Notes: generated by a model not told the origin, from the sequence alone. A stretch of 32,000 nt of DNA from Trichodesmium erythraeum IMS101 (GCF_000014265.1 NC_008312.1:6630001-6662000), one strand, 5' to 3'; positions 800 to 15,853 are shown, counted from the stretch's first letter. Program-made: numbers and translations.

Positions 800-3268
800 T
801 TTGGTTTTGGCGATCGCTTTCCTATTCTTTTTTTTTGTTGAATAAATAATCATGTGTATGGGCGTGTTTGGCCTTATATTCATAGTTTATCAATTTTTTT
901 CAAAAGTCGCAACCCCTATACCTCTTTTTTTTTTTGAGCTCCACAGGATGAAAAATCTCGGTACAGTAAAGCAGCGCTTTGAATATTAGTTGATCAGCTC
1001 TATACCTCTTTTTTTTTCGGGGCTCCACAGGATGAAAAGTCTGGGTTCTGGGTAAAGTAAGTCAGCACTTTGAATACTAGCCTACCAGCTCTAATTTATT
1101 GATGATTTTTTGATGAGCTTCTTCTTAGACTTGCTTGCTTTGGTTTTCTTCAAGAGCGATCGCTTTCCTATTCTCTTTTTTGTGTTGAATAAATAATCAT
1201 CCGTATAGGCGTGCTTCCCCTTATATTTATAGTTTATCAATTTTTTTCAGAACTTGCAACTCCTATACCCCTTTTTTTCTTGAGCTCCACAGGATGAAAA
1301 ATCTCGGTACAGTAAGGCAGCACTTTGAATATTGGTTTGTCAGCTCTAATTTATTGATGATTTTTGTGATGAGCTTCTTCTTAGACTTGCTTGTCTTGGT
1401 TTTCTTCAAGAGCGATCGCCTTCCTATTCTCTTTTTTTTTGTTGAATAAATAATCATGAGTATGGGCGTAGTTACCCTTATATTCATAGTTTATCAATTT
1501 TTTTCAAAAGTCGCAACCCCTATACCTCTTTTTTTCGGAGCTCCACAGGATGAAAAGTTTGGGTAAAGTAAAGCAGCGCTTTGAATATTAGTTGCAATTC
1601 CCATACCTCTTTTTTTCGGAGCTTTACAGGATGAAAAGTCTGGGTAAAGTAAGTCAGCACTTTGAATACTAGCCTACCAGCTCTAATTTATTGATGATTT
1701 TTGTGATGAGCTTCTTCTTAGACTTGCTTGCTTTGGTTTTCTTCAAGAGCGATCGCTTTCCTATTCTCTTTTTTTTTGTTGAATAAATAATCATGAGTAT
1801 GGGCGTGTTTACCCTTATATTTATAGTATATCAATTTTTTTCAAAAGTCGCAACCCCTATACCTCTTTTTTCGGAGCTCCACAAGATGAAAAATCTCGGT
1901 ACAGTAAAGCAGCACTTTGAATATTAGTTGATCAGCTCTAATTTATTGATGATTTTTTGATGAGCTTCTTCTTTTTTTTTTCAGAGCTCCGCAGGATGAA
2001 AAATCTCAGTACAGTAAAGCAGTACTTTGAATATTAGTTGCAACTTCTACCCCTCTTTTTTTTCGGAGCCCCACAGGATGAAAAATCTGGGTACAGTAAA
2101 GCAGTACTTTGAATATTAGTTGCAACTTCTAGACCTCTTTTTTTTCCGGAGCCCCACAGGATGAAAAATCTGGGTACAGTAAAGCAGCACTTTGAATATT
2201 AGTTGATCAGCTCTAATTTATTGATGATTTTTGTGATGAGCTTCTTCTTAGACTTGCTTGCCTTGCTTTTCTTCAAGAGCGATCGCTTTCCTGCCCTCTT
2301 TTTTTTGTTGAACAAATAATCATGTGTATGGGCGTGCTTCTCCTTATATTCATAGTCTATCAATTTTTTTCAGAAGTTGCAACTCCTATACCTCTTTTTT
2401 TCTCGAGCTCCACAGGATGAAAAATCTCGGTACAGTAAAGCAGTACTTTGAATGCTAGTGGCAACTTCTAGACCTCTTTTTTTTCAGAGCTCCGCAGGAT
2501 GAAAAATCTCAGTACAGTAAAGCAGCACTTTGAATATTAGTTGATCAGCTCTAATTTATTGATGATTTTTGTGATGAGCTTCTTCTTAGACTTGCTTGTC
2601 TTGGTTTTCTTCAAGAGCGATCGCTTTCCTGTCCTCTTTTTTTTGTTGAATAAATAATCATGCATATAGGCGTGCTTCTCCTTATATTCATAGTCTATCA
2701 ATTTTTTTCAGAAGTCGCAACCCCCATACCTCTTTTTTTTTCAGAGCTCCACAGGATGAAAAATCTGGGTAAAGTAAAAAAAAGCAGCACTTTGAATATT
2801 AGTTGCAACCCTAGACCTCTTTTTTTCGGAGCTCCACAGGATGAAAAATCTCGGTAAAGTAAAAAAAAAAGCAGCACTTTGAATATTAGTTTGTCAGCTC
2901 TAATTTATTGATGATTTTTTTGATGAGCTTTTTCTATGACTTGCTTGCTTTGGTTTTCTTCAAGAGCGATCGCTTTCCTGTCCTCTTTTTTTTGTTGAAT
3001 AAATAATCATGCATATAGGCGTGCTTCTCCTTATATTCATAGTCTATCAATTTTTTTCAGAAGTTGCAACTCCTATACCTCTTTTTTTTTCTCGAGCTCC
3101 ACAGGATGAAAAATCTCGGTAAAGTAAGTCAGCACTTTGAATACTAGCCTACCAGCTCTATGATGATTTTTTGATGAGCTTCTTCTTAGACTTGCTTGCT
3201 TTGGTTTTCTTCAAGAGCGATCGCTTTCCTATTCTCTTTTTTTTGTTGAATAAATAATTATGTGTATG
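800..3268. repeat. Compound tandem array A: 8 long modules (~190 bp, each with one HIP1 GCGATCGC site) interleaved with 14 short modules (~75-85 bp, core GAGCTCCACAGGATGAAAAATCT(C/G)GGTA(C/A)AGTAAAGCAGCACTTTGAATATTAG)
   Basis: HIP1 sites lie at 810, 1156, 1412, 1749, 2279, 2617, 2966 and 3217, with spacings of 251-530 bp. The spacing depends on whether 1, 2 or 4 short modules separate them. Short-module cores start near 948, 1024, 1285, 1541, 1621, 1875, 1985, 2068, 2150, 2406, 2487, 2745, 2830 and 3095. An internally deleted long module lies at about 1931-1980. Confidence 0.95.
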
Positions 3269-3324
3269 GGAGAAGAACCCCTAATGCTTCAGCTCTATCA
3301 TCAGCTATTGATCTAACACCGAGA

Positions 3325-3370
3325 AAACCTAAAGCCTAAAACCTAACGCCTAAAACCTAATGCCTATTTT
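3325..3370. repeat. Short tandem repeat, about 3 copies of a 14-nt unit GCCTAAAACCTAA(C/T)
   Basis: Read directly: aaacctaaa gcctaaaacctaac gcctaaaacctaat gcctatttt. Confidence 0.8.
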
Positions 3371-3460
3371 GAAGAACTGATAATTTTGTCATTTTTTTAC
3401 TTAAGGCTTTTGTCATCTGTCTCAGATTTAAGACATTTGACATTTAGTTCTAAAAAATTT

Positions 3461-3477
3461 TTCCCGCGGAGCGGGAA
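3461..3477 (-). terminator. GC-rich hairpin (TTCCCGC-GGA-GCGGGAA) 40 nt downstream of the vWA-FGE stop; on the minus strand it is followed by AAAATTTTTT
   Basis: Perfect 7-bp stem with a 3-nt loop, read directly. It could be an intrinsic terminator, or alternatively a DGR-type target-site hairpin (see findings). Confidence 0.5.
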
Positions 3478-3484
3478 GTAAAGA

Positions 3485-3515
3485 ACAAGAGGGCAAGAGG
3501 GCAAGAGGGCAAAGG
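3485..3515. repeat. Microsatellite-like repeat, about 3.5 copies of GCAAGAGG, between the stop codon and the hairpin
   Basis: acaagagggcaagagggcaagagggcaaagggc read directly. Confidence 0.85.
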
Positions 3516-3516
3516 G

Positions 3517-6105
3517 CTATTCAAAAGTCCTGGGGGGGAAACTCACAAGACGAAAACCAATATAGAAGTTGTCCGCCTCGTCCGAGATACAGTAGGAGCG
3601 GGACGCAGAGCGACACCTCCAAGGATAGATGATCCAGGAGCCGCCACGAAGTACTTTTATACTATTTTTATTACTATTTTTATTACTGTTGATTCTAGCA
3701 CTTCCATCTGTAGGAGCTCCTACATAATTATTATACCTGTCGTCAGCACACCATTCATAAACGTTTCCGTGCATATCATATAAACCAAAAGCATTTGGTG
3801 GAAATTTACCTACAGGAGTTGTTTGGTTTCTATCTTCTCCTTTTGGCCCGTCGCCGTAAGTATCGTTGCCATTATAGTTAGCTAACTCAGGTGTTATGGT
3901 TTCTCCAAAGTAGAATGGTGTACTCGTTCCTGCACGACAAGCATATTCCCATTCGGCTTCACTGGGTAACCTGTACTTTCTTCCTGTTAGTTTTGATAGT
4001 CTTTTACAAAATTCTACTGCTTGGTTCCAGTTTACCTGCTCCACTGGTCTCTGCCATCTATCTATACTTTCGTATGGTTTAAAATATGATGGCTCTGGGT
4101 CTAGGTCTCGTTCTACTTTTATGTCTGTTCGAGTGGCGATCGCTTTCCACTGTCCTTGAGTTACTGGATATTTGCCCATAAAAAAGGAAGGAACAGTTAC
4201 CTGATGTTGGGGCCGTTCATCATCTTCGCTATCCTCTTCATTTTCAGGAGAACCCATGGTAAAAGTACCACCAGGAATATAAACCATTTCTAGCTCTACC
4301 TTTTCTCGAAGACTTTCTTTAAAGTATCGGGCAGAGTTAATATCTTCCTTAATAATTTCTCCTTTTTGGTTGACTTTGGGAGTTTTATACTCATACTTAA
4401 AAACCTCGATATCTGAGGGAAAAAATATTCCACCTGTTTCTAAGTTTTCAACAAAAGCTGTATAGTCTCCCCCTAGTTCTTTTAAGATATTAAATCCAAT
4501 TTCGGCAAAAGCTGGCACAGTTTCTTCCGTATTTGTAGGTAGTTTTAATAAGGCTACAAATTCTTTCATTGACTTCCCAAAATGCTCTTTTAAATATTGA
4601 GAAACTGCATCAAAAACTTTTTGAGAATCACTGACTGGAGCACTTTTTAATAAGATATTTCTAATTTTTTCGTCTACAAATTTATATTCTACTAATTCTG
4701 AGTTTGTGTCAGGAGTAATTTCTTGGGTTGGCTTTAATAAACCTCCTAAAAATACTTCGGCTGTATGAATAGGTAAAGCTTGTGATAAAAGTTTTGCTTG
4801 AATTATTCTGACTACGGGAAGGCATATCATTGGTGCGGCAGATAATAAGCTTGCTAATTTTCTGGCTATAGGAGAAGCGTTCATTCTAAAACGATGAACT
4901 CTTTTTTCTGGGTTTAATTTTTCAATTTTATTTTCTGGTAAATTTTCAGATTTTAGGTGAAGTTCATTTGGCAAAAGAAAGCCTGATACTAATGCTTCGG
5001 GTTTACCTATTAACATTTGACTCCAAACTTTTGCTAGTTCTGGTTGGAGAGTTAATATGGGAATTTTTATTCCTTGTTCTAATAAGAGATTTCTCCATAA
5101 CAAAAATTCTTTAATAATCAAGTTTTTGTTGCTATTTCCTGGTACTAAATTTTGTAGTTGAACTGAGGATCCTATTCTTAAACCTGTTCTTCTCCACATC
5201 CAGTCTGGTAACATTTGTAAAATTGCTAATGGTTGGTATTCTCCCCATTCTCGTAAGGTTGATAGTATTGAACCGTCATGCCAAAAGGGTGCAATACAAT
5301 CACTTACTATTAATATTAAACGACGACCTGTTCTGTCTATTAATTCTTGAGTTTTAGGGAAAGTTTTTTGTTTTCCTATTCCTGCTGTTAGTAAAATTTT
5401 ATCTGAGTTTTTTTGATTTTTTTGAGTGTATTTTTGTTTTTGAATTGCTGCTAATTCTTGAGGGTATAGTCGGCATATTTTTACTTCTCGAAAGATGCCA
5501 TAATTTTTGAGGAGTTGTTTTAATTCTTTGATGGTGTGTTGCCATAAAGTCATTGATTTATATTTGTCTATGACTAAAACTAGGTCTAACCAAGGTTCGG
5601 GTTCTGATTTTAATATTGGAATACAAATACCGCTTTTGGCTGTTTGGTTTACGGTTTCTATTTCGTCTAAGGTTGTTTTTTTTGGGGAGTTTACTTTTTG
5701 CATTAGAGGTTGTAATGCTTTAGCGAATTCTAATGGTTTTGGTATTGAGGGGGCGTCGGGTATTCTTAAGGGTAAGTTTTTTTGAGTGTCTATTTTTTGT
5801 TTGGTGTTATCTCTAATGTCTAAATAAATAAGGGTTGTTTTTTGGGGAGTTTTAGGATGTGGGGTTGATGTTATTTTTTTAGGGGTATGGGGGGGTGAGT
5901 TGGGATGGATGTTTGGTTTTTTCTTATTTTGATTATCAATGTTTGTTTGGGTTTTGGTTGATTTTTTGGTTGGTATTAGTTCTTGGCGTTTTAATGATAA
6001 CCATAATATTTCGGCTATTTCTCTTCCGGTAAATTCTAGGTCTATACCTAAAGTTTTGATTAGTTTTTCAATTTTTTGTTGTTGATTATTATTGGGAGAT
6101 TTCAT
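3517..6105 (-). CDS. Multidomain protein: SAV_2336-like N-terminal helix, P/T/K-rich linker, vWA-like domain with a degenerate MIDAS motif, helical middle region, and C-terminal formylglycine-generating-enzyme (FGE-sulfatase/CLec) domain
   Basis: The N-terminus has REIAEILWLSLKRQ, the ELADALWLA-type motif of vWA partners of MoxR ATPases. The vWA-like core has LDLVLVIDKYKSMTLW, then RRLILIVSDCIAPFWHDGSI, then PLAILQMLPDWMWRRTGL. FGE hallmarks are MVYIPGGTFTMGSP, YRLPSEAEWEYACRAG, GLYDMHGNVYEWCAD and LRGGSW...GFRLV. The MIDAS reads D-K-Y-K-S instead of DxSxS. Confidence 0.85.
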   Translation of the reverse strand: MKSPNNNQQQKIEKLIKTLGIDLEFTGREIAEILWLSLKRQELIPTKKSTKTQTNIDNQNKKKPNIHPNSPPHTPKKITSTPHPKTPQKTTLIYLDIRDNTKQKIDTQKNLPLRIPDAPSIPKPLEFAKALQPLMQKVNSPKKTTLDEIETVNQTAKSGICIPILKSEPEPWLDLVLVIDKYKSMTLWQHTIKELKQLLKNYGIFREVKICRLYPQELAAIQKQKYTQKNQKNSDKILLTAGIGKQKTFPKTQELIDRTGRRLILIVSDCIAPFWHDGSILSTLREWGEYQPLAILQMLPDWMWRRTGLRIGSSVQLQNLVPGNSNKNLIIKEFLLWRNLLLEQGIKIPILTLQPELAKVWSQMLIGKPEALVSGFLLPNELHLKSENLPENKIEKLNPEKRVHRFRMNASPIARKLASLLSAAPMICLPVVRIIQAKLLSQALPIHTAEVFLGGLLKPTQEITPDTNSELVEYKFVDEKIRNILLKSAPVSDSQKVFDAVSQYLKEHFGKSMKEFVALLKLPTNTEETVPAFAEIGFNILKELGGDYTAFVENLETGGIFFPSDIEVFKYEYKTPKVNQKGEIIKEDINSARYFKESLREKVELEMVYIPGGTFTMGSPENEEDSEDDERPQHQVTVPSFFMGKYPVTQGQWKAIATRTDIKVERDLDPEPSYFKPYESIDRWQRPVEQVNWNQAVEFCKRLSKLTGRKYRLPSEAEWEYACRAGTSTPFYFGETITPELANYNGNDTYGDGPKGEDRNQTTPVGKFPPNAFGLYDMHGNVYEWCADDRYNNYVGAPTDGSARINSNKNSNKNSIKVLRGGSWIIYPWRCRSASRSYCISDEADNFYIGFRLVSFPPRTFE

Positions 6106-6343
6106 AAGAAAGAATAAGGGGTAGGATAATTAAATAGTGGAATAATAGTGAAATAATTTTAAGTTTGGTTTAGGTGAGCAGTTTGTTTGGTTTCAGGAGT
6201 ATTTAAGGTAAAAGTAAGAATATTAATATTGCTGTTTAATGTTTATTTTTTTAGTTTTGTTTTGATGGCAATTTTAAGTTTGTTACTATTACTATTATTT
6301 TTATTATTATATGATTTTAGTTATAGTGGCAAATATCATAAAT

Positions 6344-6481
6344 AATGAAAATATTTTAATATACTTTTATGGCTATAAAGTAATAATTTAAATGAATCAA
6401 TATTCTAGTTCTAATGAAAATCCTTTAATATACTTTTATGGCTATAAAGTAATAATTGAAATGAATCAATATTCTAGTTCT
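6344..6481 (+). repeat. Tandem duplication of 2 x 69 bp (66/69 identical) covering the mtnB 5' leader and start codon
   Basis: Copy 1 is 6344-6412 and copy 2 is 6413-6481. Each contains ATGAATCAATATTCTAGTTCT. The codon before the ATG is TAA in copy 1 and GAA in copy 2, so both ATGs (6392 and 6461) are in frame. Confidence 0.9.
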
Positions 6482-7150
6482 GTGGTTACTAAGGAAAAAC
6501 AATGGTATCAAAGTGATACTGATAAGTTGGTCTGCGAGCTCTGTCGACACTTCTACAACTTGGGCTGGGCTAGTGGTACTGGTGGGGGCATTTCCATCCG
6601 TGACGAAGATGGGATCCACATTACTCCATCGGGGGTGCAGAAGGAACGGATATCCCCGGATGATGTGTTTCTCCTGGATGCTAGGGCACTTGATGGTGCA
6701 AAAGTTATACGGCCAGCGGCTAACTCTAACTTACGTCTGAGCGAGTGTACCCCTCTATTTATGGCTGCTTACCGACTGCGGAAGGCTGGGGCGGTTCTTC
6801 ACAGCCATTCGATATGGGCTATGTTGGCTGGACGTCTGTGCTCCCCTAATGGTGAGCCTGGGGTTTTTCGTACCCGCAACCTAGAGATGCAAAAGGGTTT
6901 GCGTGGACGTGGCTGTTTTGAAACAGTTGAGGTCCCTATTATCTCGAATACTACCCGTGAGTCCCAGCTTACAGATAGCCTGACGGCGGCTATTGAGGAT
7001 AACCCGGATGTGGATGCTGTGATCGTTGCTGGTCATGGGGTCTATGTCTGGGGTGAAAATTGGGCCCATGCGAAGACTCAGGCTGAATGCTATGACTATT
7101 TGTTCCGTGCGGCAGTAGAGGGGTATCGCTTAGGTTTACCTATCCATTAG
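6392..7150 (+). CDS. mtnB: Methylthioribulose-1-phosphate dehydratase (class II aldolase/adducin fold, MtnB/APIP type); alternative start at 6461
   Basis: Close resemblance, from memory, to eukaryote-type MtnB/APIP: LCRHFYNLGWASGTGGGISIR, ITPSGVQKERI, SECTPLFMAAY, AGAVLHSHS, GHGVYVWGENW..AKTQAECYDYLF. The start is ambiguous because of the 69-bp duplication. Confidence 0.85.
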   Translation: MNQYSSSNENPLIYFYGYKVIIEMNQYSSSVVTKEKQWYQSDTDKLVCELCRHFYNLGWASGTGGGISIRDEDGIHITPSGVQKERISPDDVFLLDARALDGAKVIRPAANSNLRLSECTPLFMAAYRLRKAGAVLHSHSIWAMLAGRLCSPNGEPGVFRTRNLEMQKGLRGRGCFETVEVPIISNTTRESQLTDSLTAAIEDNPDVDAVIVAGHGVYVWGENWAHAKTQAECYDYLFRAAVEGYRLGLPIH

Positions 7151-7164
7151 AGGAGGGAGCTGGG

Positions 7165-10100
7165 TCGGCTAATGGTGCTTAACAAAGGAGGCCAAGGGTA
7201 AAAATAACTGTAGGTTGGGTTGAAGCACGAAACCCAACAGACAGTGGTTGGCAGATAATAACTTTAGGTTGGCTAATGGTTTTATGAAGTAGGTGTGATG
7301 TTTCTGTTGGTTTTGATTTTTTTTGCCTAACTTAGGTTTTATGGTTTTTTGGTGGAATAATTTTTGGGCGGAATAATTTTTTGGTGGAATAACTGTAGGT
7401 TTGGTTGAGGTACAAAACCCAGGAAAAGCTGGTTGGCAGATAATAACTTTAGGTTGGCTAATGGTTTTATGAAGTAGGTGTGATGTTTCTGTTGGGTTTG
7501 ATTTTTTTTTGCCTAACTTAGGTTTTATGGTTTTTTGGTGGAATAATTTTTTAGCGGAATAATTTTTTGGTGGAATAACTGTAGGTTTGGTTGAGGTACA
7601 AAACCCAGGAAAAGCTGGTTGGCAGATAATAGCTTTAGGTTGGCTAATGGTTTTATGAAGTAGGTGTGATGTTTCTGTTGGGTTTGATTTTTTTTTGCCT
7701 AACCTAGGTTTTATGATTTTTTGGTGGAATAATTTTTTGGTTGAATAATTTTTTGGTGGAATAACTGTAGGTTTGCTTCAGGTACAAAACCCAAGACAAG
7801 GTGGTTGGCAGATAATAACTTTAGGTTGGCTAATGGTTTTATGAAATAGATGTGATGTTTCTGTTGGTTTTGATTTTTTTTGCCTAACCTAGGTTTTATG
7901 ATTTTTTGGTGGAATAATTTTTTGGTGGAATAATTTTTTGGTGGAATAATTTTTTGGTGGAATAACTGTAGGTTTGCTTCAGGTACAAAACCCAAGACAA
8001 GGTGGTTGGCAGATAATAGCTTTAGGTTGGCTAATGGTTTTATGAAATAGATGTGATGTTTCTGTTGGGTTTGATTTTTTTTTGCCTAACTTAGGTTTTA
8101 TGATTTTTTGGTGGAATAATTTTTGGGCGGAATAATTTTTTGGTGGAATAACTGTAGGTTTGGCTGAGGTACAAAACCCAAGACAAGGTGGTTGGCAGAT
8201 AATAACTTTAGGTTGGCTAATGGTTTTATGAAATAGATGTGATGTTTCTGTTGGTTTTGATTTTTTTTGCCTAACCTAGGTTTTATGATTTTTTGGTGGA
8301 ATAATTTTTGGGCGGAATAATTTTTTGGTGGAATAACTGTAGGTTTGGTTGAGGTACAAAACCCAGGAAAAGCTGGTTGGCAGATAATAGCTTTAGGTTG
8401 GCTAATGGTTTTATGAAGTAGGTGTGATACTTCTGTTGGTTTTGATTTTTTTTGCCTAACCTAGGTTTTATGATTTTTTGGTGGAATAATTTTTGGGCGG
8501 AATAATTTTTTGGTGGAATAACTGTAGGTTTGGTTGAGGTACAAAACCCAAGACAAGGTGGTTGGCAGATAATAACTTTAGGTTGGCTAATGGTTTTATG
8601 AAGTAGGTGTGATGCTTCTGTTGGTTTTGATTTTTTTTGCCTAACCTAGGTTTTATGATTTTTTGGTGGAATAATTTTTGGGCGGAATAATTTTGTGGAA
8701 TAACTGTAGGTTTGGTTGAGGTACAAAACCCAAGACAAGGTGGTTGGCAGATAATAACTTTAGGTTGGCTAATGGTTTTATGAAGTAGGTGTGATGCTTC
8801 TGTTGGTTTTGATTTTTTTTGCCTAACCTAGGTTTTATGATTTTTTGGTGGAATAATTTTTGGGCGGAATAATTTTGTGGAATAACTGTAGGTTTGGTTG
8901 AGGTACAAAACCCAAGACAAGGTGGTTGGCAGATAATAACTTTAGGTTGGCTAATAGTTTTATGAAATAGGTGTGATGTTTCTGTTGGGTTTGATTTTTT
9001 TTTGCCTAACCTAGGTTTTATGATTTTTTGGTGGAATAATTTTTTAGCGGAATAATTTTTTGGTGGAATAATTTTTTTGTGGAATAACTGTAGGTTTGGT
9101 TGAGGTATAAAACCCAGGAAAAGCTGGTTGGCAGATAATAGCTTTAGGTTGGCTAATGGTTTTATGAAGTAGGTGTGATACTTCTGTTGGTTTTGATTTT
9201 TTTTGCCTAACCTAGGTTTTATGATTTTTTGGTGGAATAATTTTTTAGCGGAATAATTTTTTAGCGGAATAATTTTTGGGTGGAATAACTGTAGGTTTGG
9301 CTGAGGTACAAAACCCAGAAAAAGCTGGTTGGCAGATAATAACTTTAGGTTGGCTAATAGTTTTATGAAATAGATGTGATGCTTCTGTTGGTTTTGATTT
9401 TTTTTGCCTAACTTAGGTTTTATGATTTTTTGGTGGAATAATTTTTTGGTGGAATAATTTTTTGGTGGAATAACTGTAGGTTTGGCTGAGGTACAAAACC
9501 CAAGACAAGGTGGTTGGCAGATAATAGCTTTAGGTTGGCTAATGGTTTTATGAAATAGATGTGATGTTTCTGTTGGTTTTGATTTTTTTTGCCTAACCTA
9601 GGTTTTATAATTTTTTGGTGGAATAATTTTTTGGTGGAATAATTTTTTGGTGGAATAACTGTAGGTTTGCTTCAGGTACAAAACCCAAGACAAGGTGGTT
9701 GGCAGATAATAGCTTTAGGTTGGCTAATGGTTTTATGAAATAGATGTGATGTTTCTGTTGGGTTTGATTTTTTTTTGCCTAACTTAGGTTTTATGATTTT
9801 TTGGTGGAATAATTTTTGGGCGGAATAATTTTTTGGTGGAATAACTGTAGGTTTGGCTGAGGTACAAAACCCAAGACAAGGTGGTTGGCAGATAATAACT
9901 TTAGGTTGGCTAATGGTTTTATGAAATAGATGTGATGTTTCTGTTGGGTTTGATTTTTTTTTGCCTAACCTAGGTTTTATGATTTTTTAGCGGAATAATT
10001 TTTTGGTGGAATAATTTTTTGGTGGAATAACTGTAGGTTTGCTTCAGGTACAAAACCCAAGACAAGGTGGTTGGCAGATAATAACTTTAGGTTGGCTAAT

Positions 10101-10531
10101 GGTTTTATGAAATAGATGTGATGTTTCTGTTGGTTTTGATTTTTTTTGCCTAACCTAGGTTTTATGATTTTTTGGTGGAATAATTTTTTGGCGGAATAAT
10201 TTTGTGGAATAACTGTAGGTTTGGTTGAGGTACAAAACCCAGAAAAATCTGGTTGGCAGATAATAACTTTACGTTGGCTAATGGTTTTATGAAATAGGTG
10301 TGATGCTTCTGTTGGGTTTGATTTTTTTGCCTAACCTAGGTGTTATGATTTTTTGGTGGAATAATTTTTTGGTGGAATAATTTTTTGGTGGAATAACTGT
10401 AGGTTTGCTTCAGGTACAAAACCCAGGAAAAGATGGTTGGCAGATAATAACTTTAGGTTGGCTAATGGTTTTATGAAATAGATGTGATGCTTCTGTTGGT
10501 TTTGATTTTTTTTGCCTAACTTAGGTTTTAT
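7165..10531. repeat. Tandem array B: about 18 units of 182-203 bp filling the whole gap between the convergent 3' ends of mtnB and the MoxR-like gene; each unit contains 3-4 copies of a nested 16-nt sub-repeat GGTGGAATAATTTTTT
   Basis: The landmark CTGTAGG recurs at 7208, 7393, 7579, 7765, 7966, 8152, 8338, 8522, 8704, 8886, 9089, 9289, 9474, 9659, 9845, 10031, 10213 and 10398. The ~200-bp units carry a fourth 16-mer. A two-unit block starting at 7966 appears identical by eye for more than 300 nt to one starting at 9659 (offset 1693). Confidence 0.95.
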
Positions 10532-10563
10532 AAGTTTTTAGAGATTTATAAATTTTCAAAATT

Positions 10564-11658
10564 TTATTGACTTAAATTTTTAAACAAAATTTCCTTAAGA
10601 GACTCAATATTATTATCATCTTGAGGACTATTTGACTGAGTTAATATATGAATTGTATTGAGTAACTGATCTGTTGCTCTGTCAAATGCTTCACCTTCTT
10701 CTTGTTTGGGCAAAAATTCTTTAATTAATTCCCCAATATAGTCCTGATTTTGATTATACAATTCATCTCCGAAATGAGCTTGAACAATACTTTTTAAAGC
10801 TTCCTCTTTTGGGTCTGGCATTGTCACTCTTAAACAACGTCGTTTAAATGCGGGAGGAAAATCTCTTTCTCCATTACTTGTCATTACAATAATAGGAAAA
10901 GCTGCACATTTTACTTTTCCAGTTTTGAGGGTTACTTTGTCTTCATCTTGTGTCCAAACTGTAAATTGTTGTGGAGATTCTTGTGAAAATTCTTGTGAAG
11001 ATTCTGCTGATTTTCTAGATTTACTTCTACGCATTAATTCGGGAATAATAAATTCTCCTTCCTCAAAAATATTGAGTAAATCATTGGGTAAATTAATATC
11101 ACTTTTATCAACTTCATCTATTAATAAAACCCGAGGAAATTGAGAAGGTAAAAATGCTGTACCTAAGGCACCTAATGTAATATATTCTCCAATGTGTTGT
11201 TCTTTTTTTAATTGAGCATCTTGTAACCTGGCAATAGCATCATAACGATATAGTCCATCTTGTAAAGCAGACCTTGCTGTAATTGACCAAGATAATACAG
11301 TTCCCAAACCTAATTCATAAGCAATGGCATAAGCAAGGGATGTTTTGCCAGAACCTGGTTTTCCAGTTATTAATAAAGGTCTTCTCAAATAAATTGCTGC
11401 GTTAACACTGTTAATTACATCTTTTGCTTCTTTTTGTTGTTGAGGAAGTCGAAAGTTTTTACCTCTTTCTAATCCTTTTTTTTGTTGTTTTGCTAATTTT
11501 CTTAATTCTAACCATCTACTGTCAATTCCTTTTTCATTTACTTTAATATCTGTTGTTTCCCCAAATTTACGCCAAGGAGGAGGCTCTATATTTAAGAGTT
11601 TTTTTTCAACTCCTTTTTCTTTAATTCCATTCCCTTGAAATAAATGCCAATGGCTCAT
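10564..11658 (-). CDS. MoxR-like AAA+ ATPase (the type that partners vWA proteins)
   Basis: Walker A is GKPGSGKT (codons at 11341-11364, verified on the DNA). Walker B is VLLIDEVD. The sensor region has FKRRCLRV. The N-terminus has a PPPWRKF motif, and LRRPLLITG precedes the P-loop, as I recall for MoxR ATPases of vWA-MoxR conflict systems. Confidence 0.85.
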   Translation of the reverse strand: MSHWHLFQGNGIKEKGVEKKLLNIEPPPWRKFGETTDIKVNEKGIDSRWLELRKLAKQQKKGLERGKNFRLPQQQKEAKDVINSVNAAIYLRRPLLITGKPGSGKTSLAYAIAYELGLGTVLSWSITARSALQDGLYRYDAIARLQDAQLKKEQHIGEYITLGALGTAFLPSQFPRVLLIDEVDKSDINLPNDLLNIFEEGEFIIPELMRRSKSRKSAESSQEFSQESPQQFTVWTQDEDKVTLKTGKVKCAAFPIIVMTSNGERDFPPAFKRRCLRVTMPDPKEEALKSIVQAHFGDELYNQNQDYIGELIKEFLPKQEEGEAFDRATDQLLNTIHILTQSNSPQDDNNIESLKEILFKNLSQ

Positions 11659-11687: not shown

Positions 11688-13400
11688 TTACCCAAAAGTG
11701 TAGGCATCGTCTTCTTCAAATCTTGATAAAATTCGGTAAGGGTTATCACATAAAAATCCTAAGCCATATCCTAGTTTTTCTTCATTGTTATCATCAATAT
11801 AAGCTTCTTCTCGTAATTTTTTTATGGAATTTAAAAGACTGGTTAAACTTTTAATATCTTGCAGTGTTAAGATTTGCAGAAAGTTTGTTTTTAACTTTTC
11901 AGGAGTATATTTAAGGTTAATACTCCATAATGCAATGGGAATTCCAGCAATAATAATTGCTTTCATAATCTCTTTGATTTCTTGAATATTTTTTAAAGGT
12001 GAAATAATGTTTATTCCTATTTTTTGATTGTCTCTTAAACGTGCTTCTAGTATTTTCCATTTTTCATAGCGACTATGATGTTCAAATTTATTTTCAATTA
12101 TTTCTGAAGTTAATGGTGACTGGGATATAAAAAAATCATTTACTTCTTGCCAGTTATTTTCTAATCTCAGTAAATATTCACGATTATTTTGATAAGTTTC
12201 AAATCTTTCCAAAATTCTAAAAGTTAATGGGTGCTCACAACAAAGCTTTCTACTTTCTCCTGCAAATAGTGTTGAATTTTTTATTGGTAAAGGGATAGCT
12301 TCCATGGGCTTTAAAAAATATTTGATAGGCAAGAATAATTCAATAATGATTGACGGCTCAAACCTAATATTACTATTTCGAGAACGATAATGTTGTAATT
12401 TCCAATAACTTTTCTGAATAAATTTTTTAAGACAGTTTCCTATTTTTTTGAAGTTTTTTGCACATCTAACAGCTTGTGTTTGCTCCTGAATATAAATAGG
12501 TTTTTGTTTCAGAATTTTCTTACTATGATCTTTTTCTAGGACTAACTCACCTTGCAATAGTAAATCAGAACCAGCATCTTCTAAACTTATTAATAAGTAA
12601 GGCTGAATTTTTTCTGTGGGCAAGAATTTTGATAGATTTTTATTTTTTTCTTGAGTCTTTAATAGGGTATCTTTTTTCTGGAGTCGAGCAGTAAATTTTG
12701 AAAGCCATATTTTTAAATTAGATCTACTTTCCTTTTGTTTTTGAGTCTCTAATTGAATATTTAGTTGATGAGAAACTTCTGAAACCCATGTTTTAAATTC
12801 ATTGGGAATGGTAGATTTTGTTGGAAGATAATTAGGGTTTGATAATATTGTCTGAAGTGATATATCTATTTGTTCATATGGCATTCTGCTTAAATAATCA
12901 ACAAATTCTAAAACTACGGGAATTTCTCTTGAACTTTGCTCTCGTTTTTTAATTAAATTATCTTTTAAAGTATCTTGAGTTTCTTCAGCTTCTAAGGATT
13001 TTAAGTTAATTAATCTTGGATCAACTTCCACAATTTCTTTTGGTTGAAAGGTTTCCTGAAAAGCTAAATCTAAATAAGTTGGATGAATCTGAGAGAGTAA
13101 TTTATATAACTTTTCCCATTGTTTTTCGGTAATGTAGAAAAGTTGATAAGTTATGTTTTTAATTGGCAAATTATGGGGATTTTGATCATTAGCTCCCCAA
13201 ACTAAGTCTAATAGTTTATTTTGACTTTCAGCCCATTCAATTAATGCCAGAATAACATTGTCAAGAGGGTCTCGTTTAACAATCTCCTCAAGATTTTTTT
13301 CTAGATTTAATCTAAACATTATTCTAAGTTGATCATAGCTTCGATAGCCATCTTCTAAAGCTTTAAATAGATATTTCCTTTCAGATTTAGACAAGTTCAT
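11688..13400 (-). CDS. 570-aa protein: N-terminal effector-associated-domain (EAD)-like helical module (residues ~1-80) plus a large K/E/L/I-rich domain without a P-loop; candidate VMAP-like (vWA-MoxR-associated) scaffold
   Basis: Residues 1-77 align without gaps to the N-terminus of the protease at 14783-15853, with 35/77 identical by my own count. No GxxxxGK[ST] motif is present. The gene lies directly upstream of the MoxR-like gene. The VMAP assignment rests on context only. Confidence 0.6.
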   Translation of the reverse strand: MNLSKSERKYLFKALEDGYRSYDQLRIMFRLNLEKNLEEIVKRDPLDNVILALIEWAESQNKLLDLVWGANDQNPHNLPIKNITYQLFYITEKQWEKLYKLLSQIHPTYLDLAFQETFQPKEIVEVDPRLINLKSLEAEETQDTLKDNLIKKREQSSREIPVVLEFVDYLSRMPYEQIDISLQTILSNPNYLPTKSTIPNEFKTWVSEVSHQLNIQLETQKQKESRSNLKIWLSKFTARLQKKDTLLKTQEKNKNLSKFLPTEKIQPYLLISLEDAGSDLLLQGELVLEKDHSKKILKQKPIYIQEQTQAVRCAKNFKKIGNCLKKFIQKSYWKLQHYRSRNSNIRFEPSIIIELFLPIKYFLKPMEAIPLPIKNSTLFAGESRKLCCEHPLTFRILERFETYQNNREYLLRLENNWQEVNDFFISQSPLTSEIIENKFEHHSRYEKWKILEARLRDNQKIGINIISPLKNIQEIKEIMKAIIIAGIPIALWSINLKYTPEKLKTNFLQILTLQDIKSLTSLLNSIKKLREEAYIDDNNEEKLGYGLGFLCDNPYRILSRFEEDDAYTFG

Positions 13401-14340
13401 TATTGTGATTGTTTAATTTAATCAAGTTACATTTTTTCTAAAAATATTAGAGCTATAAATTTGGATTAATTTGCTTTAAAGTTTTAGCTATAAATAGCCT
13501 GCAAATAATTAATATAAATATTTTTTTAGAAATAGCGATCGCTCAATAGATATTTGATTTTAAATTGAGATTGGTTGATTATCATTGTGCTTATTTAATT
13601 AATTTAATTTACGTTGTATTCAAATAAATTATAGGCATAATTTTGTATTAATTTGCCTTAATATTTTATCTATAAATATCCTGAAAATAACTAATATAGA
13701 TATTTTTTTAGGAGTAGCGATCGCTAAATATATATTTGATTTTAAATTGAGATTGGTTGATTATCATTGTGCTTATTCAATTAATTTAATTTACGTTATA
13801 TTCAAATAAATTATAGGCATAATTTTGTATTAATTTGCCTTAATATTTTAGCTATAAAGATCCTGAAAATAACTAATATAGATATTTTTTTAGGGGTAGC
13901 GATCGCTCAATATATATTTGATTTTAAATTTAAATTAGTTGATTATCATTGTGCTTATTTAATTAATTTAATTTACGTTGTATTCAAATAAATTATAGGC
14001 AAATTTTGTATTAATTTGCTTTAAAATTTTAGCTATAAATATCCTGAAAATAACTAATATAGATATTTTTTTAGGAGTAGAGATCGCTCAATATATATTT
14101 GATTTTAAATTTAAATTAGTTGATTATCATTGTGCTTATTTAATTAATTTAATTTACGTTGTATTCAAATAAATTATAGGCAAATTTTGTATTAATTTGC
14201 TTTAAAATTTTAGCTATAAATATCCTGAAAATAACTAATATAGATTTTTTTTTAGGAGTAGCGATCGCTCAATATATATTTGATTTTAAATTTAAATTAG
14301 TTGATTATTATTGTGCTTATTCAATTAACTTAATTTACGT
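13398..14340. repeat. Tandem array C: about 5 units of 181-182 bp, an amplification of the entire spacer between the membrane-protein stop and the 570-aa gene start
   Basis: HIP1 or its degenerate form occurs at 13535, 13717, 13899, 14080 (GAGATCGC) and 14261. The junction motif TTTACGTT occurs at 13611, 13793, 13975, 14156 and 14337, with a diverged copy at 13429. The last unit overlaps the final codons of the 14325-14747 gene. The first unit overlaps the ATG at 13398-13400. Confidence 0.95.
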
Positions 14341-14747
14341 TTTTCTAGAGGAATTAGAGGAATAACTACTGTATAAAGCACCATTAATATTGAGCCATAA
14401 ATAGGCTGATACCAACTAATAGAAATAAATGGTTTTCCACCAATAGCGATCGCCCAAACTATAAATGCTCCTACGGAAATAATCCCTTGTTTAATAGTAG
14501 GTTTCTTCTTTGAACTGACTGGTAATAAACAAATATAAGCGAAAGTTAAGAACAAACAAAAAATAAATATTCCCCATAAAATACTATTTTCAGGAACATT
14601 ATTGTTTCCTTCTACCATAGTTTTAATAGTAATCCATACTCCTACTATTTCTGAAGGAATATATTTCACTATCTTGTCGAAATAATTATCTATATCAGAT
14701 TTTGTTTCTGATGCTTGTAGTTCAGTTTCAATAATAGAACGGTTCAT
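14325..14747 (-). CDS. Small integral membrane protein (140 aa; soluble ~30-aa N-terminus, then 3-4 predicted transmembrane helices)
   Basis: Hydrophobic stretches are ILWGIFIFCLFLTFAYICLLPV, GIISVGAFIVWAIAIGG and IYGSILMVLYTVVIPLIPL. The start is 35 nt after the protease stop. I recognise no family. Confidence 0.65.
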   Translation of the reverse strand: MNRSIIETELQASETKSDIDNYFDKIVKYIPSEIVGVWITIKTMVEGNNNVPENSILWGIFIFCLFLTFAYICLLPVSSKKKPTIKQGIISVGAFIVWAIAIGGKPFISISWYQPIYGSILMVLYTVVIPLIPLEKRKLS

Positions 14748-14782: not shown

Positions 14783-15853
14783 TTAGTTAAGTTGAATTGA
14801 TTTTTGTTCTAAATCATGATGAATAGAACTAAACAAAATACCTTCACGAATAGTGCCAAAATATTTAGAACGTTGAGCATGATGTAAAGCTACTAATTCT
14901 CCATTTTCATTAAAACAGGGTGAACCACTGGAGCCTCCTGCTGTTCTATTAATATACTGAACTAATCCACTATGAGGATAAACTCCTGTAATTCCATCAC
15001 AAGTAATAGAAAGTTTCATTGATTCTCCATTGGGATGTTGTAGAATATTAATACTATCAGCTTCAGAGAGGAAAATATGAGGCTGCCATTTAGCAGGTTT
15101 AATCTTTGTATCTTCTGAATCTAAAGCTTGACTAAAAGTTTTTTCAAGCTGTAGTAAAATATAATCAAGTTCTCCTACAGGACTAGAGGAAATAATAGGT
15201 TTTTCAGAATCTAATAAAAAGGATTTTGATGTGCTTTCTCTACTGTTATTTAAACTAAAACAGCCAAAACTAATACGAATATTCTTGGCATTTAACTCAA
15301 GATTATTATTGTTATTTTGTTTAAGCACATGATAATTAGTTAAAACATATTTTGAAGCAATTAATACCCCTGTTGCTGTAATATTTAGATTTGGTACATC
15401 AAGCCGACAAACTGATTTAGCTTGCTCAATAATTTTCTGCAAAAATCCTACATCATACCAATCTGGTTGTTTTTTAAATAATCCTTGTAATTCAATTTGG
15501 TCAGTTTTTCCATGCCAATCAATATTCGGACCAAAATCTCTAATGGGAGTCAAATCATAATCTAAAATTGCTCTTTTCTGAAAGTCTTTTGAGATTGTGT
15601 GAAAAAATTTTTTTAACTTTTGATTATCAGGATTTTGTTCATAAGCTCCTATAATTAAAGACTTTAATTTTCCCCGAGCTTCTGCTGAGTCAATTAAATT
15701 AAAAACGACTGTTTCTAAATCACCTTTCCCGGCAAATCTTTCTAAATTTTCTTCTAACTTAAATCTAACCATTCTTTGAAGCTTGCCATAGTCTCTATAA
15801 GAATCTAATAAAGCTTCAAATAGTTCTTCAGTTTCAAAACCTGATAATGTCAT
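14783..15853 (-). CDS. EAD-like N-terminal domain fused to a trypsin-like (S1/Trypsin_2-type) serine protease
   Basis: The catalytic triad is recognisable: H175 (LTNYHVL), D230 (GELDYILLQL) and S309 (TAGGSSGSPCF; Ser codon at 14927-14929, verified on the DNA). The N-terminal 77 residues are paralogous to the N-terminus of the 570-aa protein. Confidence 0.85.
   Translation of the reverse strand: MTLSGFETEELFEALLDSYRDYGKLQRMVRFKLEENLERFAGKGDLETVVFNLIDSAEARGKLKSLIIGAYEQNPDNQKLKKFFHTISKDFQKRAILDYDLTPIRDFGPNIDWHGKTDQIELQGLFKKQPDWYDVGFLQKIIEQAKSVCRLDVPNLNITATGVLIASKYVLTNYHVLKQNNNNNLELNAKNIRISFGCFSLNNSRESTSKSFLLDSEKPIISSSPVGELDYILLQLEKTFSQALDSEDTKIKPAKWQPHIFLSEADSINILQHPNGESMKLSITCDGITGVYPHSGLVQYINRTAGGSSGSPCFNENGELVALHHAQRSKYFGTIREGILFSSIHHDLEQKSIQLN

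What the first reader, a model, noticed from the sequence alone, without database searches (positions are those of the whole stretch)
3517..11658. The vWA component appears separated from its MoxR partner by array B plus a foreign mtnB gene
In described vWA-MoxR(-VMAP) systems the vWA and MoxR genes are neighbours. Here both are on the minus strand. They are 4.46 kb apart, and the interval holds only array B, an opposite-strand mtnB of alien composition, and AT-rich spacer. Removing that interval would restore a contiguous five-gene minus-strand cluster: protease, membrane protein, EAD-570aa, MoxR, vWA-FGE. This suggests either a disrupted system or one rewired into separately regulated transcription units.
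Basis: inference. Interest (0 to 1): 0.65.

Follow-up and report, generated by a model that had tools for sequence, protein, structure and literature searches.

The report
Split MoxR–vWA defence operon, Trichodesmium
A known type of cyanobacterial defence-like gene cluster (VMAP, MoxR ATPase, vWA sensor protein) has its last two genes pushed 4.5 kb apart by a tandem-repeat array and a horizontally acquired methionine-salvage gene, yet both genes look intact and in use, so this is an unusual layout of an ordinary system.

Summary
A MoxR-class AAA+ gene (10564-11658, minus) and a vWA-FGS gene (3517-6105, minus) lie 4,458 bp apart. The interval holds an 18-unit, ~185-bp tandem array (7203-10539), an opposite-strand mtnB (6392-7150; GC3 0.47 against 0.15-0.29 for neighbouring genes) and a 286-bp AT-rich spacer.

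Adjacency is the norm. In 79 related loci, the distance from the MoxR stop to the first aligned vWA residue has a median near 27 bp. Only three loci exceed 1 kb, so the window has the widest gap seen.

"Disrupted" is not supported:
- Both ORFs are intact in independent Trichodesmium erythraeum-type contigs.
- dN/dS is 0.12-0.30.
- The vWA-FGS C-terminus shows substitutions of the kind made by a diversity-generating retroelement (DGR).

"Separately transcribed" is plausible but untested. The split is old: Okeania and two other Trichodesmium-like genomes also lack adjacency, each with different filler. mtnB sits in unrelated contexts in Okeania, and its closest named relatives outside this clade are marine Myxococcota.

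Verdict: a member of the known VMAP ternary systems with an unusually expanded operon. Interest is low to moderate.

The parts
14783..15853 (-). EAD1 + trypsin-like peptidase gene (356 aa), accessory effector of the VMAP system
   Evidence: Pfam EAD1 1.2e-17 and Trypsin_2 1.2e-17. The same gene occupies the same position in Okeania KiyG1.
14325..14747 (-). 140-aa protein with three hydrophobic segments, the conserved partner of the trypsin gene
   Evidence: Translation. The Okeania orthologue is highly similar. No Pfam or NCBIfam hit. Whether it is a Trypco family member (PMC7159879) was not tested.
13455..14341 (.). Array C: 182-bp tandem repeat x 4.9 (GC about 0.20) that interrupts the cluster between the membrane-protein gene and the VMAP gene
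   Evidence: TRF, 94% matches. It is collapsed in short-read contigs L002 and L003, giving a gap of 199 bp instead of 925 bp.
11688..13400 (-). VMAP gene (570 aa): EAD1 plus VMAP-C
   Evidence: Pfam VMAP-C 1.5e-15 and EAD1 7.6e-13.
10564..11658 (-). MoxR-class AAA+ ATPase gene (364 aa)
   Evidence: Pfam AAA and AAA_5. Homologues are named MoxR family ATPase. The AlphaFold model (pLDDT 73) best matches NorQ and CbbQ MoxR ATPases, E 4.5e-9 to 7e-8. dN/dS 0.12-0.16.
7203..10539 (.). Array B: 18 tandem units of 182-202 bp. Each unit has a GTAGGTTKGKTTSARG...AACCCA hairpin motif and 2-4 copies of a 16-bp subrepeat (TTTTTTGGTGGAATAA). G greatly exceeds C on the plus strand.
   Evidence: The array starts about 25 bp after the MoxR stop codon.
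6392..7150 (+). mtnB (methylthioribulose-1-phosphate dehydratase), a compositionally foreign passenger gene convergent with MoxR
   Evidence: TIGR03328, 190.6 bits. GC3 0.47. An identical protein is named from T. erythraeum 21-75; the nearest named relatives outside Trichodesmium and Okeania are marine Myxococcota. The gene sits in unrelated contexts in Okeania and a related JGI contig.
6343..6481 (+). 69-bp tandem duplication (2 copies, 95-96% identical) spanning the mtnB start. It adds an in-frame 23-aa N-terminal repeat; the real start may be the second ATG at 6461.
   Evidence: Homologues cover only about 83% of the 252-aa ORF. The duplication is also present in metagenome contig L004.
6106..6391 (.). 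AT-rich divergent spacer between vWA-FGS and mtnB. It is the inferred site of an independent vWA-FGS promoter and holds a degenerate array-B-like fragment at 6119-6175.
   Evidence: GC about 0.23. Promoter-like match on the minus strand at 6332-6303, TTGCCA-18-AATAAT (not above chance). Collinear similarity to the end and start of an array unit, z about 2.
3517..6105 (-). vWA-FGS gene (862 aa): SAV_2336 N-terminal region containing a vWA-like Rossmannoid domain, plus a C-terminal FGE-sulfatase (C-type-lectin fold) domain
   Evidence: dN/dS 0.19-0.30 over the N-terminal 600 codons.
3517..3705 (-). C-terminal hypervariable region of the FGS domain, a probable DGR variable repeat
   Evidence: Against the 95%-identical population variant L095, the last ~160 nt hold 28 of 79 nucleotide differences, mostly at first and second codon positions. 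Amino-acid identity is 69% over the last 62 codons against 98.5% over the first 600, and dN/dS is 1.13. This fits the 12-target T. erythraeum DGR (PMC4143802).

Best explanation
The window comes from a Trichodesmium erythraeum-type genome. It carries one complete VMAP ternary conflict system of the kind described by Kaur, Burroughs, Iyer and Aravind (2020): EAD1-trypsin, a small membrane protein, EAD1-VMAP, a MoxR AAA+ ATPase, and a vWA protein fused to an FGS (FGE-sulfatase, C-type-lectin fold) domain that a DGR diversifies. The canonical order VMAP-MoxR-vWA is kept, but the normally tight MoxR-vWA junction has been opened.

Inferred history:
1. The ancestral state was adjacency.
2. In the Trichodesmium/Okeania lineage the junction was colonised by repeat elements that expand into tandem arrays and turn over quickly. 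Each genome examined has different filler.
3. In the T. erythraeum type, mtnB came to lie at the vWA-proximal end of the array. This gene has high GC and probably came earlier from a marine myxobacterium-like donor. It sits elsewhere in Okeania.

The system is still functional. MoxR and vWA-FGS remain under purifying selection and the FGS tip is hypervariable between populations. Because mtnB converges on MoxR and diverges from vWA-FGS, vWA-FGS is most likely transcribed from its own promoter in the 286-bp AT-rich spacer. The MoxR-vWA complex would then assemble from separately made products.

Shown here: anatomy, rarity of separation, gene integrity, selection, the variable-region pattern, and mtnB composition and contexts.
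Inferred: order of events, promoter, and function.
For: System identity:
- Pfam EAD1, VMAP-C, Trypsin_2, AAA_5 and FGE-sulfatase, and NCBIfam SAV_2336_NTERM at 405 bits.
- The MoxR model best matches NorQ and CbbQ.
- The best PDB match of the vWA-region model is the NorD chain of a NorQD complex.
- Asp180 and Asp269 sit at the ends of strands 1 and 4 and are conserved, which is the vWA criterion given in PMC7159879.

Adjacency is the norm:
- 79 of 82 related loci have the vWA gene downstream on the same strand, with a median gap near 27 bp and only 3 gaps above 1 kb.
- In Rivularia PCC 7116 the three genes are contiguous.
- At least 28 contig lengths are shared between the two homologue lists.

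The split is old and its filler variable:
- Okeania KiyG1 has a 2.4-kb spacer with ~183-bp tandem units and partial gene duplicates, but no mtnB.
- In Trichodesmium MAG_R03 the MoxR gene (91% identical in the best tblastn segment) is followed by unrelated sequence and heptamer repeats.
- In GCA_040262915.1 the vWA-FGS orthologue is preceded by a SnoaL gene.
- The arrays are not detectably homologous to one another.

The system is functional:
- ORFs are intact in independent contigs.
- dN/dS is 0.12-0.30.
- The variable-region pattern is DGR-like.

mtnB is a foreign passenger:
- GC3 is 0.47 against 0.15-0.29.
- The best named hits outside the clade are Nannocystaceae, Pseudenhygromyxa and Paraliomyxa at 65-70% identity.
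- It sits in unrelated contexts in relatives.
- Array-like fragments flank it on both sides.
Against: - No transcription data are available. The promoter match in the spacer is a single consensus hit in a region with fewer hits than shuffled sequence.
- The first MIDAS serine (DxSxS) is a tyrosine in the whole Trichodesmium/Okeania clade, which could mean altered or weakened metal or peptide binding.
- The vWA fold assignment is weak: Foldseek E 3e-3, with phosphoribosyltransferases scoring about as well, and no Pfam VWA hit.
- The similarity of the mtnB flanks to array units is only z about 2-3.4.
- The Okeania KiyG1 orthologous locus shows signs of decay, with a split VMAP ORF and partial duplicates. 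Erosion of this locus type in the lineage therefore cannot be excluded.
- The myxobacterial origin of mtnB rests on ranked hits, most of them unnamed, and not on a phylogeny.
Confidence: 0.72

Rival explanations
1. The system is a decaying relic. Loss of contiguity with MoxR uncoupled the partners, and the genes are on their way to becoming pseudogenes.
For: - Separation is rare among related systems.
- The first MIDAS serine is lost in this clade.
- The orthologous Okeania KiyG1 locus has a split VMAP ORF and partial duplicates of the MoxR 3' end and the vWA 5' end.
- Other exceptional loci are degraded, for example L016, where MoxR is followed only by an FGE fragment.
- In cultured IMS101 the DGR reverse transcriptase is reported to be pseudogenised (PMC4143802).
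Against: - All five ORFs are intact here and in independent assemblies.
- dN/dS is 0.12-0.16 for MoxR and 0.19-0.30 for the vWA region. These values span divergences that post-date the split.
- DGR-type variable-region differences between natural populations imply recent use.
Confidence: 0.13
2. The arrays, especially array B, are functional parts of the system: a repeated structured RNA or a promoter/insulator array that regulates vWA-FGS expression. On this reading the rewiring is adaptive and not neutral filler.
For: - The unit folded as minus-strand RNA (the strand of the system genes) is more stable than shuffles, z = -3.8, with a 12-bp long-range stem. One pair covaries among units.
- Tandem arrays sit in the MoxR-vWA spacer of two different Okeania systems.
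- In T. erythraeum one tandem-repeat array gives the most abundant ncRNAs in the cell (PMC4143802).
- Three arrays (A, B, C) flank or interrupt this one cluster.
Against: - The arrays in T. erythraeum, Okeania and MAG_R03 are not homologous.
- There is no Rfam match.
- The plus-strand fold has z about 0.
- Units are paralogous copies, so the covariation count is nearly uninformative.
- Trichodesmium intergenic regions are generally repeat-rich (PMC4143802).
- The hairpin motif is a dispersed element found in unrelated places.
Confidence: 0.1
3. The apparent insertion is an assembly artefact or a strain-specific rearrangement of no generality.
For: Short-read assemblies break at or collapse the arrays, so the copy number in any one assembly is uncertain.
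Against: Independent metagenome and MAG contigs from different samples (TARA, ENA, NCBI) place mtnB beside MoxR in nine of ten cases, and nine of ten carry vWA-FGS on its other side. L102 is 99.5% identical across 3300-7300.
Confidence: 0.02

Closest known systems
VMAP ternary systems (vWA-MoxR subsystem 1) of Kaur, Burroughs, Iyer and Aravind, eLife 2020 (PMC7159879)
   Same: - Core genes VMAP (EAD1 + VMAP-C), MoxR AAA+ and vWA in the canonical 5'-3' order.
- vWA fused to a C-terminal FGS domain, described there as almost exclusive to cyanobacteria.
- An EAD1-trypsin accessory gene with a small co-occurring partner gene.
- A filamentous, colony-forming host.
   Different: - MoxR and vWA are 4.46 kb apart instead of adjacent or overlapping, with a convergent unrelated gene and a 3.3-kb tandem array between them.
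- A second array splits the accessory genes from VMAP.
- The first serine of the MIDAS DxSxS motif is a tyrosine.
DGR-diversified FGS / C-type-lectin targets of Trichodesmium erythraeum (Pfreundt et al. 2014, PMC4143802) and of cyanobacterial VMAP systems
   Same: A C-terminal FGE-sulfatase domain whose last ~60 codons vary between populations at first and second codon positions, while the rest of the gene is 98.5% identical at the amino-acid level.
   Different: No template repeat or reverse transcriptase lies in the 32-kb window, so the DGR would act in trans. I could not check whether this gene is one of the 12 published targets.
NorQ-NorD and CbbQ-CbbO MoxR-vWA chaperone pairs
   Same: They are the best structural matches for both proteins. 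The ATPase ring and vWA adaptor logic probably applies.
   Different: Those pairs mature metalloenzymes. Here the pair is embedded in a conflict-type system with peptidase and lectin-fold modules. Sequence identity is only 12-16%.
Expressed tandem-repeat arrays of the Trichodesmium non-coding genome (Pfreundt et al. 2014)
   Same: Long, highly similar tandem units in intergenic DNA next to genes. In Okeania the spacer also contains partial duplicates of the flanking genes, as reported for the Tery_0080 array.
   Different: The published array has seven units of 736-973 bp. Array B has 18 units of ~185 bp with internal 16-bp subrepeats. Its expression is unknown.

Membership tests
VMAP ternary system (MoxR-vWA-VMAP) | A VMAP protein with the VMAP-C domain, usually with an N-terminal EAD or enzymatic domain | tested here: met
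   PF20028 VMAP-C 1.5e-15 (58 bits, cutoff 27) and PF19955 EAD1 7.6e-13 in the 570-aa protein.
VMAP ternary system (MoxR-vWA-VMAP) | Gene order 5'-VMAP, MoxR, vWA-3' on one strand | tested here: met
   Minus strand: 13400-11688, 11658-10564, 6105-3517. The order is kept.
VMAP ternary system (MoxR-vWA-VMAP) | Contiguity of the three core genes (operon-like adjacency) | tested here: not met
   VMAP and MoxR are 29 bp apart, but MoxR and vWA are 4,458 bp apart with an opposite-strand gene between them. In related loci the median is about 27 bp and 76 of 79 are within about 560 bp. Contiguity is a typical feature and not a functional definition, and 3-4 other loci are also interrupted.
MoxR clade of AAA+ ATPases | AAA+ core with Walker A and B motifs whose closest structural relatives lie in the MoxR/dynein/midasin (helix-2 insert) clade | tested here: met
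   GKPGSGKT and LLIDEVD motifs. The model's top 15 Foldseek hits are all NorQ or CbbQ ('a MoxR AAA+-ATPase'), followed by Rea1 and dynein. The helix-2 insert itself was not inspected residue by residue. Pfam AAA_5 is only weak, and a sequence search of the PDB finds only P-loop matches.
vWA domain (MIDAS-containing Rossmannoid) | Six-stranded alpha/beta Rossmannoid fold with conserved aspartates at the ends of core strands 1 and 4 | tested here: met
   The model has strands 174-180, 208-215, 237-241, 262-268, 293-297 and 312-317. D180 is conserved in at least 90% and D269 in all of 43 homologues. The top PDB hit is the NorD chain of NorQD, followed by MDN1-MIDAS, integrin and ANTXR1, but E is only 3e-3 and HPRT folds score similarly.
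vWA domain (MIDAS-containing Rossmannoid) | Complete MIDAS motif DxSxS | tested here: not met
   The window has D-K-Y-K-S. Most cyanobacterial homologues have D-E-S-x-S. The Ser-to-Tyr change is shared by the four Trichodesmium/Okeania-clade sequences.
vWA domain (MIDAS-containing Rossmannoid) | Match to a curated vWA sequence model | tested here: not met
   No Pfam VWA-family hit at E <= 1 in any of 43 homologues. The only sequence hint is the integrin alpha-1 I domain at E 0.47, over the strand-1 region.
DGR target (variable repeat in a C-type-lectin/FGS fold) | Hypervariability confined to the C-terminal ~50-60 codons, at codon positions 1 and 2 | tested here: met
   28 of 79 differences from L095 fall in the last ~160 nt. 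Amino-acid identity is 69% there against 98.5% in the first 600 codons.
DGR target (variable repeat in a C-type-lectin/FGS fold) | A cognate template repeat with adenines at the variable positions, plus a reverse transcriptase | not testable with these tools
   Neither is present in the window.
MtnB (methylthioribulose-1-phosphate dehydratase) | Score above the equivalog cutoff of TIGR03328 | tested here: met
   190.6 bits against a cutoff of 137, and Aldolase_II 8.5e-39.

The most novel reading that the evidence does not exclude
The tandem arrays are not neutral filler. Array B, perhaps with arrays A and C, would encode a repeated structured RNA or an array of regulatory sites on the strand of the system genes. 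This would control when the DGR-diversified vWA-FGS sensor is made relative to MoxR and VMAP. The Trichodesmium/Okeania lineage would then have converted a translationally coupled three-gene module into an RNA-regulated, two-unit module.
Probability: 0.1. Interest if true: 0.6.

Novelty: new member of a known kind. Interest (0 to 1): 0.3.

Why it matters
The VMAP ternary systems are proposed to need a fixed gene order, and by implication co-expression, so that the MoxR-vWA-VMAP complex assembles in order. This locus is a natural case in which the order is kept but contiguity is lost for a long evolutionary time, while the genes stay under selection. That suggests tight operon coupling is dispensable for function.

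The locus also shows how the unusually large non-coding fraction of Trichodesmium genomes grows: repeat arrays expand inside former operons, and a horizontally acquired housekeeping gene can lodge there. No new kind of system is implied.

Tried and rejected
- Pfam at E up to 10 on the N-terminal 562 aa, and Pfam on all 43 homologues: no vWA model hit.
- Profile search of PDB sequences with the vWA-FGS alignment: only FGE-type hits plus a marginal integrin I-domain hit.
- Profile search of PDB sequences with the MoxR alignment: only P-loop hits. Structure models were needed instead.
- Rfam on the whole window: no hits. tRNA scan: none.
- Homology between arrays A, B and C and the Okeania array: none beyond the short hairpin motif. 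'One ancestral array' is rejected in favour of recurrent turnover.
- A CRISPR reading of array B is rejected, because whole ~185-bp units repeat at 91% match with no unique spacers.
- Promoter and terminator scans: fewer hits than in shuffled sequence, so uninformative.
- Look-up of P0003, the 65% vWA-FGS homologue: not on record.
- L102 at first looked like a broken vWA-FGS gene because only 257 aa were called. The ORF is in fact intact at 863 aa.

Full report
**1. What is in the sequence**

The ORF map, domain scans and repeat finders give this minus-strand series:
- EAD1-trypsin (14783-15853).
- A 140-aa protein with three hydrophobic segments (14325-14747).
- A tandem array of 182 bp x 4.9 (array C, 13455-14341).
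- EAD1 + VMAP-C (11688-13400).
- A 364-aa AAA+ ATPase (10564-11658).
- A tandem array of ~185 bp x 17.8 (array B, 7203-10539).
- mtnB on the opposite strand (6392-7150).
- A 286-bp spacer with GC about 0.23.
- An 862-aa protein with the NCBIfam SAV_2336 N-terminal domain (405 bits) and a C-terminal FGE-sulfatase domain (3517-6105).
- A further complex repeat region downstream (array A, about 800-3300).

mtnB is a clear compositional outlier: GC3 is 0.47 against 0.15-0.29 for the 11 other genes of the window.

- Array C also interrupts the cluster.
- Pfam does not recognise a vWA domain in this protein or in any of 42 homologues.

**2. Are these really a MoxR-vWA pair?**

*ATPase.* An AlphaFold model of the ATPase (pLDDT 73) best matches the MoxR-class ATPases NorQ and CbbQ (E 4.5e-9 to 7e-8). 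Rea1/midasin and dynein follow. Public annotations of its homologues read 'MoxR family ATPase'.

*vWA region.* A model of the first 600 residues of the 862-aa protein (pLDDT 71) has a six-stranded alpha/beta domain.
- Its best PDB match is the NorD chain of a NorQ-NorD complex. MDN1-MIDAS, integrin and ANTXR1 vWA domains also appear.
- The scores are weak (E 3e-3), and phosphoribosyltransferases score similarly.
- Kaur et al. define the vWA by conserved aspartates at the ends of strands 1 and 4 (PMC7159879). These are present: D180 after strand 174-180 and D269 after strand 262-268. D269 is invariant and D180 is conserved in at least 90% of 43 homologues.
- Most cyanobacterial homologues carry a full DxSxS motif (VVDESKSM). 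The window protein and its three closest relatives have D-[KE]-Y-K-S instead.

I accept the vWA assignment, with a degenerate MIDAS motif.

**3. Is adjacency the rule?**

I scanned one genome per species with a profile of the ATPase and kept the best 80 loci. I then searched their six-frame ORFs with HMMs of the ATPase and of the SAV_2336 N-terminal region. With two loci reached from the vWA side, this gives 82 loci.
- In 79 loci the vWA gene lies downstream on the same strand.
- The distance from the MoxR stop to the first aligned vWA residue has a median near 27 bp. It is 0 or negative in 14 loci and at most 563 bp in 76.
- Three loci exceed 1 kb: a Scytonema MAG (1,208 bp, holding an opposite-strand Uma2 gene), a gammaproteobacterial MAG (1,793 bp) and Okeania sp. 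KiyG1 (2,357 bp).
- In one Scytonema locus MoxR is followed only by an FGE fragment.
- Rivularia PCC 7116 shows the canonical contiguous trio.

This agrees with the published statement that the three genes show 'strict preservation of gene order' (PMC7159879). The window keeps the order but has the widest gap in the set.

Neither was seen.

**4. Disrupted or not?**

- All five ORFs are intact in the window.
- The identical MoxR protein occurs on contigs from many marine metagenomes.
- The vWA-FGS ORF is intact where contigs reach its end (L095 and L102).
- Nei-Gojobori dN/dS is 0.12 and 0.16 for MoxR, against Trichodesmium MAG_R03 and Okeania KiyG1 respectively.
- For the vWA region it is 0.19-0.30, against Okeania, GCA_040262915.1 and a conspecific variant.
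- Those lineages also lack adjacency (see section 5), so this purifying selection acted after the split.
- Between the window and the 95%-identical variant L095, 28 of 79 nucleotide differences fall in the last ~160 nt. They lie mostly at first and second codon positions.
- Amino-acid identity is 69% over the last 62 codons against 98.5% over the first 600, and dN/dS there is 1.13.

This is the signature of DGR mutagenesis. It matches reports that cyanobacterial VMAP systems use DGR-diversified vWA-FGS proteins (PMC7159879). It also matches the report that the T. erythraeum DGR has at least 12 targets, each altered at up to 17 C-terminal residues (PMC4143802). A gene still being diversified in natural populations is unlikely to be a relic.

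**5. History of the interval**

*Okeania sp. KiyG1.* The orthologous cluster has the same accessory genes. Identity to the window is MoxR 85% and vWA 73%. Its 2.4-kb MoxR-vWA spacer holds ~183-bp tandem units, a partial copy of the MoxR 3' end and a partial copy of the vWA 5' end. It has no mtnB.

*Okeania sp. SIO3B5.* A paralogous system has four to five 70-bp tandem units in the same spacer.

*Trichodesmium sp. MAG_R03.* The MoxR gene (91% identical in the best tblastn segment; 93% in global protein alignment) is followed by unrelated sequence and heptamer repeats, and the contig then ends.

*GCA_040262915.1.* The vWA-FGS orthologue (73% identical) is preceded by a SnoaL-like gene and MITE-like repeats.

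The arrays share only a short hairpin motif (GTAGGTTGGGTTGA...AACCCAAC), which is dispersed in several cyanobacterial loci. The junction therefore opened in an ancestor of this clade, and its contents turn over quickly.

*mtnB.*
- An identical protein is annotated in T. erythraeum 21-75.
- The next hits are an Okeania protein and a JGI metagenome protein (85-86% identical).
- After that come 65-75% identical proteins whose named members are marine Myxococcota: Nannocystaceae, Pseudenhygromyxa and Paraliomyxa.
- In the Okeania and JGI contigs mtnB is also a GC outlier (GC3 0.50-0.55 against locus GC 0.37).
- There it sits in unrelated neighbourhoods, between GH57 and ArgJ in one and between ArsA and UbiA in the other.
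- In T. erythraeum-type contigs it lies beside MoxR, and the vWA-FGS gene is on its other side wherever the contig extends that far.
- Short sequences on both sides of mtnB resemble parts of the array-B unit. 6119-6175 matches a unit end plus the next unit start, and 7162-7190 matches unit positions 61-88 (z about 2 and 3.4).

This hints that a ~1-kb mtnB cassette landed inside a pre-existing array. That step is inference.

**6. Transcription**

mtnB converges on MoxR and diverges from vWA-FGS. A single MoxR-vWA transcript would have to cross 3.3 kb of array and run antisense through mtnB. An independent vWA-FGS promoter in 6106-6391 is therefore the simplest reading. I could not test it:
- The one sigma-70-like match (minus strand 6332-6303) lies in a region with fewer matches than shuffled sequence.
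- The published TSS tables are not held.

**7. Array B itself**

- Array B is not a CRISPR array, because whole ~185-bp units repeat at 91% match with no unique spacers.
- It has no Rfam match.
- Folded as RNA, the unit is unremarkable on the plus strand (z -0.09).
- On the minus strand it is more stable than shuffles (z -3.8), with a 12-bp long-range stem.
- Among 17 units, one pair covaries. Paralogous copies make this weak evidence.
- A regulatory or ncRNA role cannot be excluded. T. erythraeum does express tandem-repeat ncRNAs at very high levels (PMC4143802).
- The lack of homology between the fillers of related genomes argues for neutral repeat expansion.

**8. Verdict**

The comparative premise, that partners are normally neighbours, is now quantified.

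This is an interrupted but apparently working VMAP ternary system, and the interruption is lineage-old and not a recent lesion. Only the mtnB placement is specific to the T. erythraeum type.

The system belongs to a described family, and similar though smaller interruptions occur in about 4-5% of related loci. Interest is low to moderate. The residual novelty lies in whether the arrays have a function.

Noticed in passing
window 7203-10539: Array B has 18 tandem units of 182-202 bp. The length differences come from 2-4 copies of an internal 16-bp subrepeat (TTTTTTGGTGGAATAA). GC skew is about +0.5 on the plus strand. Folded as minus-strand RNA, the unit has z = -3.8 with a 12-bp long-range stem and one covarying pair. 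Its function is unknown.
   Followed up: partly
window ~800-3300: Array A is a complex nested tandem-repeat region (periods 82, 256 and 338 bp) immediately downstream of the vWA-FGS gene. Each long unit carries a HIP1 site (GCGATCGC). There are no ORFs and no Rfam hit. It shows no similarity to the FGS variable region, so it is not a DGR template repeat.
   Followed up: partly
window 13455-14341: Array C (182 bp x 4.9, GC about 0.20, with a HIP1 site per unit) lies between the 140-aa membrane-protein gene and the VMAP gene. The cluster is therefore interrupted twice. The array is collapsed in some metagenome contigs, giving a 199-bp gap instead of 925 bp.
   Followed up: partly
window 6343-6481: A 69-bp perfect-frame tandem duplication covers the mtnB start codon and upstream sequence. 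It gives the ORF a duplicated MNQYSSS N-terminus. The same duplication is present in independent metagenome contigs, so it is fixed in the population.
   Followed up: partly
window 6392-7150; L103, L104: mtnB of Trichodesmium and Okeania looks horizontally acquired. It is a GC3 outlier in all three genomes examined, and its closest named relatives outside the clade are marine Myxococcota at 65-70% identity. No named hit among the top 120 comes from any other cyanobacterium.
   Followed up: partly
window 3517-3705: The C-terminal tip of the FGS domain is hypervariable between populations, with changes at first and second codon positions. It is GC-richer (0.44) than the rest of the gene. It is probably a DGR variable repeat served in trans.
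   Followed up: partly
window 5554-5568 (residues 180-184 of the 862-aa protein): The MIDAS motif DxSxS reads D-K-Y-K-S. The Ser-to-Tyr change is shared only by the Trichodesmium/Okeania-clade orthologues, the same clade in which MoxR and vWA are no longer adjacent.
   Followed up: partly
L011 7477-10001 (Okeania sp. KiyG1): The spacer contains a partial duplicate of the MoxR 3' end (7704-7961), a partial duplicate of the vWA 5' end (about 8252-8350) and about seven ~183-bp tandem units. The VMAP gene is split into two ORFs. TRF did not report the array.
   Followed up: partly
L072 4700-5063 (Okeania sp. SIO3B5): Four to five 70-bp tandem units, each carrying the TCAACCCAACCTAC half of the hairpin motif, fill the MoxR-vWA spacer of a paralogous VMAP system.
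   Followed up: no
window 3486-3517 and 3324-3366: An octamer repeat (CAAGAGGG x 4) abuts the vWA-FGS stop codon, and heptamer repeats (AAAACCT / AAAGCCT) lie further downstream. Similar heptamer runs end the MAG_R03 contig after its MoxR gene.
   Followed up: no
L093-L101 (metagenome contigs): Most short-read contigs break inside the FGS domain of the vWA-FGS gene at about residue 650-700. This would be expected if several paralogous DGR targets share near-identical FGS sequence.
   Followed up: no
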